A stretch of 63,283 nt of DNA, filler included, from Collodictyon triciliatum (Eukaryota), in assembly GCA_043381765.1 (NCBI GenBank). It is 5 parts of 5 records of this genome, joined end to end, with 100 filler letters (N's around TTAATTAATTAA, not from the genome) between each part and the next. Parts side by side here need not be neighbours in the genome. Positions count along the whole stretch, not along the records: positions 1 to 23,641 come from JBHJMP010000132.1; 4 more parts are not named here. One strand, 5' to 3'. Each line of letters begins with the position of its first letter. Within the stretch, counting starts at the first letter, position 1. The notes under the pieces were generated by a model, which worked only from the letters and a program-made list of their open reading frames with translations, searched no databases and was not told where the DNA came from. This document shows, in pieces, positions 3,811 through 59,368 of this stretch. Made by a program: the position numbers and the translations under genes.

Positions 3811-10099
<6,289 letters not shown>

Positions 10100-19900: not shown

Positions 19901-20063
19901 ACATGTTCGTATTGGCAAGACCCTGTTGTTTTCACAAACCCTCAAAGTTTCCAGTCAGGATCGAGTGCGTCACGCTTTGTAACTTGGCCAATTTCTCTTC
20001 AATAACCACTGGCGTACGAGGCGCGGCCGAGTCGGATGAAGCAGGGCGAACAGGAGAGTCCAT
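16967..20063 (-). CDS. T-complex protein 11 (TCP11/Sok1) family protein
   Basis: Family motifs across exons: EEQLAHE|VILNP..KVKETMKR|AFWDGIKQELINSPPIYDRVIRMFEEIREG; LEAPIRGD; IEEIRIDVINSQLQ..LQHHGLEFERYKF; C-terminal exon with LRLDTRRMQQAQ. Start approximate. Confidence 0.85.
18360..18653. repeat. (TACA)n microsatellite spanning an N gap, intronic in the TCP11-like gene
   Basis: Directly visible. Other intronic SSRs include (AAG)n ~7481-7578, (AAC)n ~9055-9158, (ATT)n ~26519-26617, 29157-29250, 32984-33077, 39921-40020, 46556-46636, 47074-47166 and (CT)n ~52429-52530. Confidence 0.95.
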
Positions 20064-21273
20064 CGGGACGTTCGGCTTTGTTATGCGCAGGAAGTCCTAG
20101 TCGAGTCGGACGGATTTTCTGGGTATTACTTTCTCGCGGTCTCCTCGGTGTTCTTGCTCTCGAGTTCAACACTTGCCTTGTGATCTTCCTTCTCAATGGG
20201 TTTATCCTTCAGATCGACGCACACACACACACACACGCCTTTCGGTTCCACAAATGTTTCTGCCCAACCTGATTATTCAATACATAGGTCTAACTTTCGG
20301 TTACGGTTGTCTATAAGCGTCGAGGGGAGTATTCACAGTTCGAGGAAAATCCACGTGGTATCATCATGATATATATTCATTATTTTCGTGTTTTTATATT
20401 TATGGCATTGATATTTATGGAATATTTGTGATATTAAGATGCAATATTTGTAATTTCCACAATTACTAAATTGGAATCTAAGGGTGCATTCGATGGTTAA
20501 TCAAAGCCTTTTTTTTCTTTTTCTTTTTCTTTTTCTTTTCTTATTCCTTCTCTATTCGGTCTCATTCAGCCTGTATATGGATAAACTTCATTGCAAAGGT
20601 TGTGACGAACTTGGTTTTGTCCCTTTCAAGGCACAACACTTTTTATACAATGAAAGTGTACCTATATTTGTATAGCAGTTTATTGCACAGACAATCATCG
20701 AATTGAATCTGGGTTGACAAAAGCAGGAGCTTTGGTGAATCCAAGAAACAACCTGAATCATATAATAGTACGATTAGTATTTAATTAAGATTAAAAATAC
20801 TTAATAGTCTCATTTTATTCCTGATATCAGTTTAATTTTATTTTCCATTATGTGATATTAAAGCTCAAAAATGAAAAATGAAAAACAATCCCTTGCCTTC
20901 GCCCAGACAGAACCCACCCTATAAACCTGCCACCAAACGTGCATTTCAAAAAAGCATACTATCCACACTTGCGGCGGTAATCATGTTGTTTGGGGCCGAT
21001 ATGTTGACTTTCAACCGCAATGGCCATACGACCATCCTTTCAAACTCGCCGAATCAGCTCTCAGTGTTTTGTCTCAAATCACTTATAAAAAAAAACTTTG
21101 TGTGTTTGTTTGCCACAATGCGCACATTTTGAAAGTCTCGGTAAATGCTTAATTTTACATAAATCGATTTTATGCAGTTTATTTATTTATTAAATTGACT
21201 GATTGACGAACGTTTTATAAAAATTGAAAACTCGGTAGTTTTCTAAAGGAAAAAGTAAAACAAAGACTTTTAG

Positions 21274-23214
21274 ATGAGGAAAAAAAAACGCCCTGAGTCT
21301 GAGAATCTAAAGTCTATAAAAACCCAAAATCGTAATACGATAACATCTCTAAAGTCGATTGTTAAGAATGCGGACAACTATTACAAAATCAACGATACGG
21401 GTTTATTGTGTCATAATTTGGTTACTGACACTTATCTGTTTGCAAGATGTTACATATTGAAATCACAACAACACCCAACAATCAATGAAAGTTTTTTTTT
21501 TGTACGCCTTAAAGACAGTCGGAATAGTTTCACAAGATAGACCAGCAAGATTAAAAGCATCCAGAAATGAGAGATGGCATGATGACTTTTTATCTCTATG
21601 ATTTTCAATTCCTTTTATCCCAAGAACACTTTCCGTTAGTTGAACTGTCTCATGTATTACTGTAATTGGCGAAGCAAATGTTAACAGTTTATCATAATAC
21701 CATTAAGGAGCATTTTGTAAAGAGGTTACTGCGCTTTATAAATCAAACATTTCCTAAAGATGTGAATATTACGGAAACTATTAAAAAGGCAGAGCTACGA
21801 AAGTAAAAAAAAAAAAAAAACCATCTTCAAGAATCTCGACATACCGGAACAATATAAATAATGGGCTAGAATACATTTGCATCATATCATTCCCAGCGAT
21901 ATTGTAAATTGTATTGAATATGACGTCAAAGCCAATCCAAAGAAGTGCACTCCATGTCTGATTTACATGAATCGTATTTTGAGGTCATTGGAATCAAAAA
22001 GTATCAACCAATCTCTATGAGAACTACCAATATGTCATGTCATATTACTCTAGATATTGCATGTTTGATGATATATTAGTATTATCTGGAAAAACACCAT
22101 TAATGAAGAATATACCAGGAAGCAAAGATACCCTATGGGATAAGTTATTTGAAATGAAGAAGAGTGTCCTTCATCAAACAGACTAGAGTTTTAAATACAT
22201 GATACAAACACACGGCTTGGCGGTGTCATTATCGTTTGAAAAGAAAGGTATTTCAAATTCAAAATTTCAATTTAATCAAAAAAACCCCCAAGAATATGTT
22301 TATATAGATGAACTTTCCGAAGAGCAGTTATATTTATTAGCGAAAAAAAAAATAGTAGTTGGAGTGGACGCAGGCAAGTTTAATATGGTTTAGATGGTGG
22401 ATGAGAAAGGTATGAAATTACATTACACGACACACAAAAGAAGACATGATAGCAAATCTCTTAAAAATCACAAAATACTTTTGAGAAGAAAGTAAAGTAC
22501 AATGCTTCAGGGATATACATCGCAAAAGATTTACAAAGCGCTGTTTCTTTTGGTCACAGGACTTTTAAAGAGAATCAATGGTTTGAGAGATTAATACTAT
22601 CTTTAATCGATTTTTTTTTTATTCTTCCTTTCAACTTTTGTGATCTTTAATCGATTTAGAGACAGGACTGATTAAACATAATTCATGCACGGTCGATTAT
22701 GAAAAATTTCGGAAGTATGCGTGCATGAAATCAAGATTCCGGTTAGAACTTTCCAGATTTTATGAACACGTGACTTTTCGAAAGATGATATGGAGACAGT
22801 ATGTTTATACAAAAAGAAGTGAAGAATTGTTTATGGACGGAATCGAAAAGGCATTTGGTAATGATGTTGTACTGGCGTATGGAGACTGAAGTAGAAAATG
22901 TCAGATGAAACATTTTATGCCAACAAACGGAAGAGGATTACGAAAAATACTATCCAAACGTTTTGAAACAGTTAGTGTAGATGAATCTAGAACCTTCAAG
23001 ATGTGCTGTAACTGCGAAAAAGAACTTGAATACATGACACCGAAAGGAAATTCAAAAAAAAATATGTAAATGTCACACATATAAAGAATGCAATCGCCCA
23101 GAAAGCAAACAAAGTGTATTCTTGACAAGGGACTTAAACAGCGCTCATAATATACTCAACAAAGTTCTTTTAATCCTTCAAAATTTGCATACGCCTTCCT
23201 CTAAAAAAAGATAG
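21274..23214 (+). pseudogene. Decayed Fanzor (Fanzor1-like, eukaryotic TnpB homologue; RNA-guided RuvC endonuclease)
   Basis: Across stops and frameshifts: N-terminal ITSLKSIVKN..CHNLVTDTYLFARCYIL; LAKQMLTVYHNTIKEHFVKRLLRFIN; YDVKANP..LIYMNRIL; FKYMIQTHGLAVSLSF; RuvC-I IVVGVDAGK (D at 22367); LAYGD*S..MKHFMPTNGRGLRKILSKRF; RuvC-II VDESRT (E at 22983); Zn-finger CCNC..C; RuvC-III TRDLNSAHNIL (D at 23131). Confidence 0.85.
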
Positions 23215-23375
23215 GCTGTTGGGTCTTTCCTCGCAGCCTTCACCACTACACAACCCTTGTGAAACAAGTGGCGAGACCTTGGATACTAGCGCACCAGGTT
23301 TATCAATCGAAAGATGGTATGCCCCTTCTAGTGTTGAATAATTATCCAATTCTGGGGTTTTTCTTTAATTCCCAT
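23213..23375 (+). ncRNA. Candidate Fanzor omegaRNA scaffold
   Basis: Stacked inverted repeats start at the Fanzor stop codon: AGGCTG 23213-18/CAGCCT 23234-39; CTTGT-GAA-ACAAG 23256-68; ATACTAG 23283-89/CTAGTGT 23328-34 enclosing an ATC-GAAA-GAT tetraloop hairpin (23306-15). This is the position where Fanzor/TnpB omegaRNAs lie. Confidence 0.55.
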
Positions 23376-23601
23376 ATGTCGACCACATCCGCCATCATGA
23401 TTTCATATCAGTTTCTCTGGGATTTGCCTTAAAAAGACGCGAGCGCATTTGATTGGTTAGGTTTGACTCTGGCAACACACAAACATACATACAAACACCA
23501 ACACAAAGGATCAAAACAAAAATAAAAAAAAACAAAGAAAAAAATAATCAAATACACAAACTCAGGCAACCAAGGCACACAACGACAGAAACAAAGACTA
23601 C

Positions 23602-23641
<40 letters not shown>

Positions 23642-23741
23642 NNNNNNNNNNNNNNNNNNNNNNNNNNNNNNNNNNNNNNNNNNNNTTAATTAATTAANNN
23701 NNNNNNNNNNNNNNNNNNNNNNNNNNNNNNNNNNNNNNNNN
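23642..23741. other. Artificial scaffold linker (N-TTAATTAATTAA-N)
   Basis: 100-nt block: N run, TTAATTAATTAA (stops in all six frames) at 23686-23697, N run. Confidence 0.97.
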
Positions 23742-23742
23742 T

Positions 23743-24845
23743 TTAAAAAAAAAAAAATTTAATAGATGATAAATTTTTTTTTTTTTTTTCCCCCCCCCCC
23801 CCCCCTTTATTCGATTCCAAGTGGAGCATAATGTATCCTCTGTTTCCATAGTGTTGTGCATCAGTCACGAACCTTTGATTGTCTCCAGATACATCACTTT
23901 CAGTCTTCCATAGAGGAATGATAAGAGCACAGTTTGCAATCGAAGTTAAAATCATAGATGCTATCGTAGTTGAGTCACTGTTTGACGTGTAATAAGAAAA
24001 TGATCTTAAATCTGTTGGTTTCAAGCCTTTCAAGAAAAGAATCATGTTGGAAAAAGGTGGTGGTAAAAGATTCAAGCTGGTAATCTCAATATAAATATAT
24101 GCTTGGCAAGCTCTTACGTCACTTTCTTTTGAAGAACAAGACATAATATCCACATAAATGTTAAGATATTTGCAGCTTGGATGAATGCACCCATGAAGGC
24201 ACCGAAGCTATCTCCCTCTGGGAGCTCATCTACAAAAACACCCAGCTACCGAATATGAAATGTTATGAGATACATATTCTTTTGGAAAAAAAAAAAAGTA
24301 AATATATATGTATGGGGCCAGGACATGAAAAGAAATCTGTAAAGACAACCAAAGAAAGGTAAGTATCCAATAGCTAAATGGCTGTATAATAAACATATGG
24401 GCTATTTATATACGTACCTTTGTCCACAGCCCATTCGCAATTAGGTATGGGTATACTCCGATAAGCACAAACAAAAGGAATATAGTCGAGCTACACGGCC
24501 ATCAAATTAGTCATGAACAAATGTTGTTGTTGTTGTTTTTTTTTAAAAAAAAAAAAAAAGAAAAGCAAGAGCAATGACCACAAAAGTGAAAATGAAAAAT
24601 GAAAGCAATATAAATGAAAAGAAAGGAGTATGTGTGTAACGCCAAAGAGTAGTTTTCCACATGAATTCCTCTTGTTCAAGACAGTTTATTACGTGATTGG
24701 AATCGGCTTCTTTGTCTCTGTCGAGTTCTCGTGTAACAGCGCGCGCGTCTCTGGAGACACAACTTCTGGATATGTCGCACCAGCCTTTGACTGAGACGTC
24801 GGCATCGCAATATACGTGCGCTTCAGCGCAGATTAGTCTTGACAT
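23743..24845 (-). CDS. SLC52/RFT-type riboflavin transporter-like membrane protein, N-terminal part (truncated by scaffold end)
   Basis: Exons STIFLLFVLIGVYPYLIANGLWTK|LGVFVDELPEGDSFGAFMGAFIQAANIL..|..IANCALIIPLWKTESDVSGDNQ match the SLC52 N-terminal signature NG(I/L)WxELPxxVxxLPEGWxL..ANI. Start codon uncertain. Confidence 0.75.
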
Positions 24846-39815: not shown

Positions 39816-44855
<5,040 letters not shown>

Positions 44856-59028: not shown

Positions 59029-59100
59029 TCCGATATGGTGTAGTCGGTAGCACATGTGGCTTTCACCCACACAACCCGGGTTCGATTCCCGGTATCGGAA
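59029..59100 (+). tRNA. tRNA-Glu (anticodon TTC)
   Basis: Acceptor stem TCCGATA/TATCGGA; A-box TGGTGTAGTCGG; anticodon arm TGTGG-CTTTCAC-CCACA; T-arm CCGGG-TTCGATT-CCCGG; followed by a TTTT Pol III terminator. Confidence 0.96.
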
Positions 59101-59368
59101 CTTTTGCTTCTTATTTTGTCATGGCGACTTATTTAGTGAGCACCAATGTCTTCACACCAGAAAGGTAAACTAATCATTCGATTGTTAAATATGGTCCGCT
59201 AGCGTCCAAGGTCTCACCACTTTTTTCACATTGTGAGGCATGGAATATATCTAACTTTCAAAAAAAATTCACACACACAAACAAACAAACAAACAAACAA
59301 ACAAACAAACAAACAAACAAACAAACAAACAAACAAACAAACAAACAAACAAACAAACAAACAAACAA

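What the first reader, a model, noticed from the sequence alone, without database searches (positions are those of the whole stretch)
23213..23410. Putative omegaRNA scaffold (with possible pseudoknot) starting at the Fanzor stop codon
Seen: a dense, GC-richer block of stems begins exactly at the ORF stop. They are AGGCTG/CAGCCT (23213-39), CCACT 23243-47/AGTGG 23267-71 overlapping CTTGT-GAA-ACAAG, and ATACTAG/CTAGTGT (23283-23334) enclosing a GAAA-tetraloop hairpin. The loop of the first hairpin, GGGTCTT (23221-27), is complementary to GAGACCT (23273-79), a possible pseudoknot. A weaker TGGG..CCCA stem lies at ~23353-23374. Established: TnpB/Fanzor omegaRNAs derive from the element's right end and take their guide from flanking DNA. 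Inference: this is the scaffold, and the guide would begin near 23375-23400.
Basis: partly seen in the sequence, partly recalled or inferred. Interest (0 to 1): 0.8.

Follow-up and report, generated by a model that had tools for sequence, protein, structure and literature searches.

The report
Guide-RNA end of dead Fanzor transposon

Summary
Only the first hairpin (23213-23239) folds far better than shuffled sequence. The proposed pseudoknot and the TGGG/CCCA stem are at chance level.

The gene upstream is a full-length but ruined Fanzor1 gene, with about 7 stop codons and about 8 frame changes. The "stop codon" at 23212-14 is a premature Gln-to-stop change. The ancestral stop is TGA at 23260-62, so hairpin 1 lies inside the old coding tail.

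An ~80-nt block right after that stop (23258-23338) recurs at 59151-59230 (- strand) without any gene. Diverged metagenome contigs bridge from the coding tail into this block and become unlike the window at 23315-23335. The element therefore ends near 23333-23338, not at 23375-23400.

Fanzor1 relatives 32-49% identical in protein carry a covarying five-helix RNA module in the same position. It starts inside the coding tail and ends in the right terminal inverted repeat. A covariance model of that module does not detect the window's block, so the likeness is one of position and architecture, not shown family membership.

Verdict: a decayed omegaRNA scaffold and transposon right end; a new member of a known kind, of low interest.

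The parts
21274..23262 (+). Full-length but decayed Fanzor1 gene (pseudogene)
   Evidence: tblastn of the intact 648-aa relative P0001 covers its residues 1-642 over 21274-23250 in 8 pieces. There are about 8 frame changes and about 7 in-frame stops. The RuvC D / E / D motifs are still readable. A profile of 30 relatives matches solved Fanzor1 chains 9cf0, 8gkh and 9cer.
23212..23214 (+).
   Evidence: P0001, P0270 and P0271 all read KKQAVG here. The BLASTP alignment runs through this codon to P0001 residue 642.
23260..23262 (+). Stop codon (TGA) of the ancestral reading frame
   Evidence: It is the first stop in frame after the read-through tail AVGSFLAAFTTTQPL. The block shared with copy B starts here.
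23213..23239 (+). Hairpin 1: 10 pairs and one U-C mismatch, lying inside the ancestral coding tail
   Evidence: MFE -14.5 kcal/mol, z = -5.0, 0 of 200 shuffles. In run X2, 4 diverged contigs read G for C at 23232, which turns the mismatch into U-G. Copy B lacks it.
23243..23271 (+). Hairpin 2 (CCACT/AGTGG with inner CTTGT/ACAAG)
   Evidence: Present in the MFE fold of 23213-23338. The inner stem is not kept in copy B or in the metagenome copies, which read A for C at 23265.
23258..23338 (+). Conserved ~80-nt block (copy A): the non-coding part of the presumed omegaRNA scaffold and transposon right end
   Evidence: 61 of 80 positions are identical to copy B, against 4-10 of 20 in each flanking bin. 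A 58-nt BLAST HSP is 84.5% identical. Model R2 scores it at E = 1e-23.
23272..23282 (+). Linker around GAGACCTTGG, invariant between A and B apart from C/T at 23272
23283..23334 (+). Closing stem ATACTAG/CTAGTGT around an inner GAAA hairpin (about 23299-23317)
   Evidence: In the consensus fold of A+B all 7 pairs are kept in both copies. Three one-sided changes each give a standard pair: U-G to C-G, A-U to G-U, U-A to U-G. The G-U pairs mean the stem fits only the sense strand. Relatives show the same layout, a stem closing on the element end.
23333..23338 (+). Inferred right terminus of the element
   Evidence: A/B similarity ends here. A contig in X3 runs on unlike the window after 23332, and two in X2 do so from 23315, keeping some likeness to about 23335 by eye. 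The end motif GTGT+RAA resembles the relatives' GGTGTAAA.
23339..23353 (+). Where a ~15-nt guide would have lain (by analogy only)
   Evidence: Inference from SpuFz1, whose transcripts run 14-15 nt past the conserved scaffold (PMC10432273, section 7). Nothing in the window tests it.
23353..23374 (+).
   Evidence: It lies beyond the A/B homology. 23339-23420 folds no better than shuffles, z = +0.66.
59151..59230 (-). Copy B: solo copy of the ~80-nt block with no Fanzor gene
   Evidence: Upstream of it lie about 40 unrelated bases, a (TTGT)n run and an assembly gap. It lies 49 nt from tRNA-Glu. On its own it folds poorly, z = +1.21.

Best explanation
Window 23213 to about 23335 is the decayed right end of a dead Fanzor1 transposon copy. 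In living relatives this region encodes the scaffold of the omegaRNA that guides the nuclease.

The scaffold would have started in the last ~16 codons of the gene (hairpin 1). It would have run through the ~75 nt after the ancestral stop codon (linker, then a closing stem around an inner hairpin) and ended at the element terminus near 23333-23338. The DNA just beyond would have been transcribed as the guide.

Shown here: the position, the conservation with its end point, the dead state of the gene, and a covarying RNA module in relatives. Inferred: that this block was once an omegaRNA. The gene is ruined and both copies of the block are drifting, so nothing suggests it still works.
For: 1. The gene is Fanzor1. 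A 141-aa piece is 68% identical to the intact 648-aa P0001. A profile of 30 relatives matches PpFz1 (9cf0, E = 4.9e-55), SpuFz1 (8gkh, 2.1e-51) and GtFz1 (9cer, 2.1e-39).

2. Position and size fit published Fanzor1 omegaRNAs. [quoted passage not shown] The GtFz1 omegaRNA overlaps 17 C-terminal codons. 'Ghost' loci lacking the gene exist (PMC10432273, section 7). Here about 16 codons overlap, and 76 nt lie between the ancestral stop and 23338.

3. Conservation stops at one place. A and B share 61 of 80 positions in 23258-23337, against 4-10 of 20 per flanking bin. In metagenome run X2, 3-5 diverged contigs per listed site differ from the window between 23185 and 23272, and their distances to the contig ends show single contigs bridging the coding tail and the block. 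Contigs then run on unlike the window from 23315 (X2, 2 contigs) and from 23332 (X3, 1 contig).

4. All 7 pairs of the closing stem are kept in both copies through 3 one-sided changes, with strand-specific G-U pairs.

5. Hairpin 1 has z = -5.0. Its arms fall on residues that recur in all four known tails (QAV and A-A/T-A), while the loop residues vary. This last point is inferred from protein only.

6. Thirteen non-redundant relatives share a 3' module, found in 15 of 80 fetched loci, some of them duplicates. It has 5 helices, 93.7% of cells paired, and 9 of 24 pairs with two-sided changes. Of 500 shuffles, 0 reach the observed value on four measures and 12 on the count of further pair types. 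Slid controls give 32-56%. The module starts inside the coding tail and ends in a 31-33-nt right TIR. Identity is 72% in the last 30 nt and 29% in the next 30 nt (78 pairs). In L012, L015, L022, L014, L024 and L026 the module, whole or in part, lies after the stop codon, so its conservation is not due to the protein.
Against: 1. The covariance model of the relatives' module (R1) does not hit 23213-23338 or copy B. It gave 26 matches at E <= 10, all elsewhere, the best being A/T-rich.
2. The model of A+B (R2) finds nothing in the 80 relatives' loci; its best hit there has E = 0.29.
3. Only two DNA copies of this family could be aligned. None of the 14 predicted pairs has a two-sided change.
4. 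The 81-nt block folds no better than shuffles (z = -0.50), and copy B folds worse (z = +1.21).
5. Copy B lacks hairpin 1.
6. No left inverted repeat was found in the window.
7. The neighbouring gene is dead.
8. Rfam has no match.
Confidence: 0.68

Rival explanations
1. The block is only the transposon's right end: a terminal inverted repeat and subterminal transposase-binding DNA, and/or the 3' UTR of the Fanzor mRNA. It is conserved for transposition or mRNA processing and never served as a guide-RNA scaffold.
For: The relatives' module ends in a true 31-33-nt TIR whose left partner was found in L007, L018 and L009. DNA-level constraint on this region therefore certainly exists. Within the window's own family no two-sided compensatory change was seen, and the 81-nt block is not unusually stable.
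Against: In the relatives, covariation lies in helices outside the TIR (helices 1 and 3), and the G-U pairs fit only the sense strand. A purely DNA-binding role does not predict this. In characterised Fanzor1 elements the TIR and the omegaRNA share the same DNA (PMC10432273, section 7), so the two roles do not exclude each other.
Confidence: 0.17
2. The stems are chance features of drifting DNA. The A/B similarity comes from an unrelated short repeat, for example a retrotransposon tail, that happens to lie next to the Fanzor remnant.
For: The overall fold is only borderline, z = -1.8 to -2.1. The pseudoknot is at chance level. Copy B has no gene.
Against: Diverged contigs in X2 bridge the coding tail and the block. 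Their variants at 23232, 23265 and 23272 lie 66, 52 and 44 nt from the contig ends, so the block belongs to the Fanzor family unit. No poly(A) follows the block in A or B. The block starts exactly at the ancestral stop. Its layout and end motif match those of the relatives.
Confidence: 0.07
3. One or both copies of the block are still transcribed and serve in trans as guide RNAs for an intact Fanzor1 elsewhere in the genome, like the gene-less 'ghost' omegaRNAs of S. punctatus.
For: Ghost omegaRNAs are active with SpuFz1 (PMC10432273, passages seen). Intact P0001-type proteins exist in public data. The core from AAGTGG through GAGACCTTGGA to CTAGCG is nearly identical in A and B.
Against: A and B differ at 19 of 80 positions. 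Copy B does not form the consensus stem in its own MFE fold. The local gene carries about 7 stops. No intact copy from this genome was available.
Confidence: 0.06

Closest known systems
SPu-1 elements, SpuFz1 omegaRNA and 'ghost' Spu-1 loci of Spizellomyces punctatus (Bao & Jurka 2013, PMC3627910; Saito et al. 2023, PMC10432273; PDB 8gkh)
   Same: The protein is Fanzor1: the family profile matches 8gkh over nearly the full length, E = 2.1e-51. The element is a single-ORF unit. A ~75-80-nt conserved non-coding block lies directly after the stop codon and runs to the element end. Gene-less copies of the block exist. Relatives have ~32-nt TIRs, against 33-bp TIRs with TA duplications in SPu-1.
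   Different: The window copy is a pseudogene. No left TIR was found. The scaffold seems to start inside the coding tail. There is no detectable sequence similarity to any characterised omegaRNA. The 7-bp SL1 described for Fz1 (PMC11423790, section 5) could not be identified with confidence.
GtFz1 omegaRNA of Guillardia theta (Saito et al. 2023; Xu et al. 2024, PMC11423790; PDB 9cer)
   Same: The omegaRNA overlaps the C-terminal coding sequence: 17 codons in GtFz1, about 16 codons here if hairpin 1 belongs to it. The scaffold is longer and has several stems (150 nt in GtFz1, about 120 nt here).
   Different: The protein is more distant (profile E = 2.1e-39, partial). No RNA-level comparison was possible with the tools at hand.
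Fanzor1-bearing TIR (Mariner/Tc1-type) elements of giant viruses, e.g. PGv-1 (Bao & Jurka 2013), and the metagenome relatives L004-L083 found here
   Same: These are the closest relatives with DNA in hand, at 32-49% protein identity. Their structured 3' module starts in the coding tail, its closing stem uses the right TIR, and the element end reads GGTGTAAA, against GTGT+GAA in the window.
   Different: The model built from them (R1) does not detect the window's block. They have one helix more. Several lie on contigs of 100-250 kb, and their viral origin was not tested here. No transposase gene was looked for.

Membership tests
Fanzor1 protein (the gene next to the finding) | Sequence homology to solved or characterised Fanzor1 nucleases | tested here: met
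   A 141-aa piece is 68% identical to P0001. The profile of P0001 plus 29 relatives matches PpFz1, SpuFz1 and GtFz1 at E = 4.9e-55 to 2.1e-39.
Fanzor1 protein (the gene next to the finding) | Intact reading frame with the RuvC D-E-D triad and zinc-finger cysteines | tested here: not met
   The triad motifs are still readable. The frame carries about 7 stops and about 8 frame changes, so it is a pseudogene.
Fanzor1 omegaRNA scaffold | Encoded at or overlapping the 3' end of the Fanzor ORF and running to the element's right end | tested here: met
   Hairpin 1 lies in the last ~16 codons. The conserved block starts at the ancestral stop (23260-62) and ends at 23333-23338.
Fanzor1 omegaRNA scaffold | Conserved among copies up to a sharp boundary, then copy-specific (guide) sequence | tested here: met
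   A vs B: 61 of 80 identical, then 5 of 20. Contigs run on unlike the window from 23315 (X2) and 23332 (X3). Only a few copies were available.
Fanzor1 omegaRNA scaffold | Base-pair covariation supporting the fold | tested here: inconclusive
   Within the family, 3 one-sided pair-keeping changes and 0 two-sided changes in 14 pairs, from 2 sequences. In relatives 32-49% identical in protein, 9 of 24 pairs covary, but that module is not alignable to the window's.
Fanzor1 omegaRNA scaffold | A 7-bp first stem-loop (SL1) followed by further stem-loop(s) and the guide (Xu et al. 2024) | tested here: inconclusive
   Candidate stems exist (hairpin 1 with 10 pairs, a weak 4-pair stem at 23266-80, the closing stem). 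None can be equated with SL1.
Fanzor1 omegaRNA scaffold | Transcribed as a discrete small RNA bound by the nuclease | not testable with these tools
   No run on record as RNA holds the stretch.
RNA family of the metagenome relatives' 3' module (model R1) | Significant match to the covariance model | tested here: not met
   cmsearch with filters off found no match at 23213-23338 or 59151-59230 among 26 matches at E <= 10.
TIR transposon with TA duplication (SPu-1 / Mariner-type Fanzor1 elements) | Terminal inverted repeats at both ends and a TA target-site duplication | tested here: not met
   No inverted partner of the right end was found in 20300-23460 or in the whole window. TT follows the inferred end in A and TG in B. 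TIRs are present in relatives.

The most novel reading that the evidence does not exclude
This freshwater eukaryote may hold a still-living Fanzor1 lineage. Intact 648-aa P0001-type proteins exist in public data. Its omegaRNA scaffold is unlike any characterised one, since neither the relatives' model nor Rfam detects it. Gene-less copies such as the one beside tRNA-Glu at 59151-59230 might then be transcribed as extra guides used in trans.
Probability: 0.07. Interest if true: 0.5.

Novelty: new member of a known kind. Interest (0 to 1): 0.22.

Why it matters
It matters little on its own: this is one more decayed Fanzor1 right end. It is useful for annotation, because it places the element boundary at about 23335, identifies the 'stop' as a nonsense mutation, and explains the solo block at 59151-59230.

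The side result is of modest value for mining compact RNA-guided nucleases. Aquatic-metagenome relatives share a covarying five-helix 3' module that overlaps the coding tail and ends in the right TIR. Elements of this design have already been described.

Tried and rejected
- Whole-genome search for other copies: no genome is held for this window.
- Rfam: no match at E <= 1 over 20000-24500, and only the tRNA at gathering score over the whole window.
- Pfam on 7 pieces of the remnant and on P0001: no credible family. The precomputed family PF26935 listed by the protein search seems absent from the local copy.
- The search for related loci with P0001 alone in viral contigs: 36 pattern matches, none a relative.
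- DNA pattern scans for the conserved core: 3 hits in viral contigs, and 0 then 6 hits in prokaryote genome contigs. All are chance matches, with flanks about 25% identical.
- Model R1 on the window and model R2 on the 80 loci: no cross-detection.
- Search for a left TIR in the window: only 9-nt chance matches.
- Sequencing runs: no RNA holder is listed. In the laid contigs nothing covers 23350-23463.
- Earlier-findings look-ups by place (near) and by sequence returned nothing.
- The idea that hairpin 1 equals the relatives' helix 1 was dropped. In the protein alignment it lies about 12-15 nt upstream of that helix's position.
- The DNA of the contigs encoding P0001, P0270 and P0271 could not be fetched.
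Full report
**Observation**

The stretch is richer in G+C than the gene before it: 0.475-0.483 for the 120-nt windows between 23180 and 23339, against 0.33-0.35 upstream.

Thermodynamic support is uneven:

| Region | z-score | Shuffles folding as well |
|---|---|---|
| Hairpin 1 (23213-23240) | -5.0 | 0 of 200 |
| 23213-23338 | -2.13 | 5 of 200 |
| 23258-23338 (81 nt) | -0.50 | 54 of 200 |
| 23339-23420 (holds the TGGG/CCCA stem) | +0.66 | 151 of 200 |

The proposed pseudoknot is a 7-bp complement with two G-U pairs. A complement at least that long, between the 15-nt loop and the next 101 nt, appears in 1302 of 2000 shuffles. It carries no weight.

**The neighbouring gene**

The window is eukaryotic-looking DNA: 37.6% G+C, many assembly gaps, cNMP-binding and zf-HIT exons, and one tRNA. 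No whole genome is held for it.

The ORF pieces upstream of the finding belong to a Fanzor1 gene:
- A 141-aa piece, read with X at its one stop, is 68% identical to an intact 648-aa protein, P0001.
- A profile of P0001 and 29 relatives matches the solved Fanzor1 chains of Parasitella parasitica (9cf0, E = 4.9e-55), Spizellomyces punctatus (8gkh, 2.1e-51) and Guillardia theta (9cer, 2.1e-39).
- tblastn of P0001 against the window covers residues 1-642 over 21274-23250, in eight pieces with about eight frame changes and about seven in-frame stops.

This is a full-length but dead copy. Metagenome contigs of other copies read G for A at 22889 (TGG for the window's TGA) in 5, 1 and 1 contigs of runs X2, X3 and X4. 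At least that stop is therefore private to this copy.

**The 'stop codon'**

P0001, P0270 and P0271 all read KKQAVG at this point. The BLASTP alignment of P0001 with the read-through translation continues to P0001 residue 642. The ancestral frame ends at TGA 23260-62.

Hairpin 1 therefore lies in the last ~16 codons of the old gene. This does not argue against an omegaRNA: the GtFz1 omegaRNA overlaps 17 C-terminal codons (PMC10432273, section 7, read in full).

The residues under the hairpin arms (QAV, and A-A or T-A followed by a codon starting with T) recur in all four known tails, while the loop residues vary. That is what a constrained stem would give, but it is inferred from protein only.

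**Conservation and where it ends**

BLAST of the region against the window found one other copy of 23258-23315, at 59230-59173 on the minus strand. Aligned, the two copies share 61 of 80 positions over 23258-23337, against 4-10 of 20 in every 20-nt flanking bin.

Copy B has no Fanzor gene. Upstream of it lie about 40 unrelated bases, a (TTGT)n run and a gap. It sits 49 nt from tRNA-Glu(UUC).

No RNA run holds the stretch. Four DNA runs from freshwater and subsurface metagenomes do, and their contigs were laid on 22400-23520 at 80% likeness or more:
- Contigs identical to the window occur in X1, X2 and X3.
- In X2, 3-5 diverged contigs per listed site carry variants at 23185, 23193, 23232, 23254, 23265 and 23272. 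The last two are the copy-B state.
- Their distances to the contig ends (66, 52 and 44 nt at 23232, 23265 and 23272) show that single contigs bridge the coding tail, the ancestral stop and the block.
- Contigs then run on unlike the window from 23315 (X2, two contigs, median 84 further letters) and from 23332 (X3, one contig, 110 letters).
- By eye, the X2 loose end still resembles the window up to about 23335.
- The variant table was truncated (132 rows not shown), so I cannot say that no other variant exists.

Together with copy B this puts the element's end at 23333-23338.

**Structure within the family**

The consensus fold of A and B keeps all seven pairs of the outer stem ATACTAG/CTAGTGT through three one-sided changes: U-G to C-G, A-U to G-U, U-A to U-G. 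It also keeps a 3-bp core of the inner hairpin. None of the 14 predicted pairs shows a two-sided change.

The G-U pairs would be A-C mismatches on the other strand, so the stem fits only a sense-strand RNA. With two sequences this is weak evidence, because roughly half of random transitions in a stem keep pairing.

The inner CTTGT/ACAAG stem is lost in copy B and in the X2 copies, which read A for C at 23265. The best-supported change inside hairpin 1 (23232 C to G, four X2 contigs) turns its one U-C mismatch into U-G. It is also a synonymous third-position change.

**Relatives**

- P0001 has 243 word-sharing homologues at E <= 1e-5.
- It has 3147 cluster representatives at E <= 0.001.
Of these, 506 were confirmed as relatives and the best 80 were kept (L004-L083, 32-49% identity). 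None is close to the window's family.

Fifteen of the 80 loci, 13 of them non-redundant, share a nucleotide-conserved 3' module. On 12 sequences a five-helix structure gives the following:
- 93.7% of cells are paired.
- Two-sided changes occur in 9 of 24 pairs.
- Of 500 shuffles, 0 reach the observed value for four measures and 12 reach it for the count of further pair types.
- Slid controls give 32-56% paired.

A shorter version of the alignment gave 93.1% paired and 6 of 20 pairs covarying.

The module begins about 75 nt inside the coding tail. In L012, L015, L022, L014, L024 and L026 the ORF stops earlier and the module, whole or in part, is non-coding, so the protein is not what conserves it. 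The module ends in GGTGTAAA. Mean pairwise identity is 72% in the last 30 nt and 29% in the next 30 nt (78 pairs of 13 loci).

The last ~32 nt are a terminal inverted repeat whose left partner was found in L007, L018 and L009, giving elements of 2.8-3.3 kb. SPu-1 likewise has 33-bp TIRs and putative TA duplications (PMC3627910, passages). Earlier notes of this scan on other genomes led me to test for a TIR that forms the last stem arm.

**How the window compares with the relatives**

The layout is the same. There are hairpin(s) in the coding tail. There is a long closing stem whose outermost pairs (A-U, then U-G) and innermost pair (G-C) match the relatives' commonest pairs. That stem encloses an inner hairpin. 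The end motif is GTGT followed by GAA, GAAG or AAA.

The evidence stops there. The covariance model of the relatives' module (R1) gives 26 matches at E <= 10 in the window with filters off, and none lies at 23213-23338 or on copy B. The model of A+B (R2) finds only A and B among the window and 80 loci. No left TIR partner exists in the window. I therefore claim the same position and architecture, not membership of that RNA family.

**Mechanism (inferred from published Fanzor1 work)**

In a living element, an RNA covering the end of the gene, the ~75-nt non-coding block and about 15 nt of flanking DNA would bind Fanzor1 through the scaffold and direct it to DNA matching the flank (PMC10432273, section 7; PMC11423790, section 5; both read in full). 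Here the nuclease gene is ruined, the two block copies differ at 19 of 80 positions, and copy B no longer forms the consensus stem in its own MFE fold. I read the finding as a relic.

**Rivals**

- A purely DNA-level role for the right end: about 0.17. It does not exclude the RNA role.
- Chance stems plus an unrelated repeat: about 0.07. The bridging contigs and the start at the ancestral stop argue against it.
- Continued use in trans: about 0.06.

**Novelty**

This is a further, decayed member of a published design: SPu-1/SpuFz1 with its ghost loci, the GtFz1 overlap, and TIR elements carrying Fanzor1. Interest is low.

**Papers seen**

- PMC10432273: passages, and section 7 in full.
- PMC11423790: passages, and section 5 in full.
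- PMC3627910: 12 of 32 passages.
- All other papers: only the search listing.

Noticed in passing
L004-L025, L044 (e.g. L007:174-3503, L018:1137-4452, L009:521-3362): Metagenome relatives are 2.8-3.3-kb elements with 31-33-nt TIRs. A small basic ORF lies upstream of Fanzor1. A covarying five-helix 3' module overlaps the coding tail and ends in the right TIR. The flanks read TT|TA...TA|AA, which suggests a TA duplication in a TTTAAA-like target.
   Followed up: partly
window 59029-59101 (+): tRNA-Glu(UUC), found by ARAGORN and Rfam (68.6 bits). The solo scaffold copy B lies 49 nt beyond its 3' end, in convergent orientation.
   Followed up: partly
window 22598-22660 (+): Inside the pseudogene the motif TCTTTAATCGATTT occurs twice, about 47 nt apart, and P0001 residues 442-446 (SLIDL) align to both. 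This looks like a short tandem duplication or extra segment.
   Followed up: no
window 5215-9771 (-): Exon-like ORFs with cyclic-nucleotide-binding domains (Pfam PF00027, E ~1e-10), separated by homopolymer runs and gaps. This looks like a PKA-regulatory-subunit-like or cNMP-dependent kinase-like host gene.
   Followed up: partly
window 40254-40553 (+): A HIT-type zinc finger (PF04438, E = 1.4e-7) in an ORF that follows a long poly-isoleucine run.
   Followed up: no
window 43969-44060 (-): A weak match (12.8 bits, E = 0.19) to the relatives' model R1 that contains the invariant AATCAGTTGAT of its second helix. It is probably chance and was not examined further.
   Followed up: no
window 23642-23741 and six other gaps: Several 100-nt assembly gaps are built as 44 N + TTAATTAATTAA + 44 N, an all-frame stop linker. 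Sequence next to them is often a homopolymer or microsatellite.
   Followed up: no
P0001, P0270, P0271 C-termini: The last ~13 residues after KKQAVG differ at about half their positions, although the rest of the C-terminal region is 84-91% identical. That is faster protein change exactly where hairpin 1 and the presumed RNA overlap lie.
   Followed up: partly
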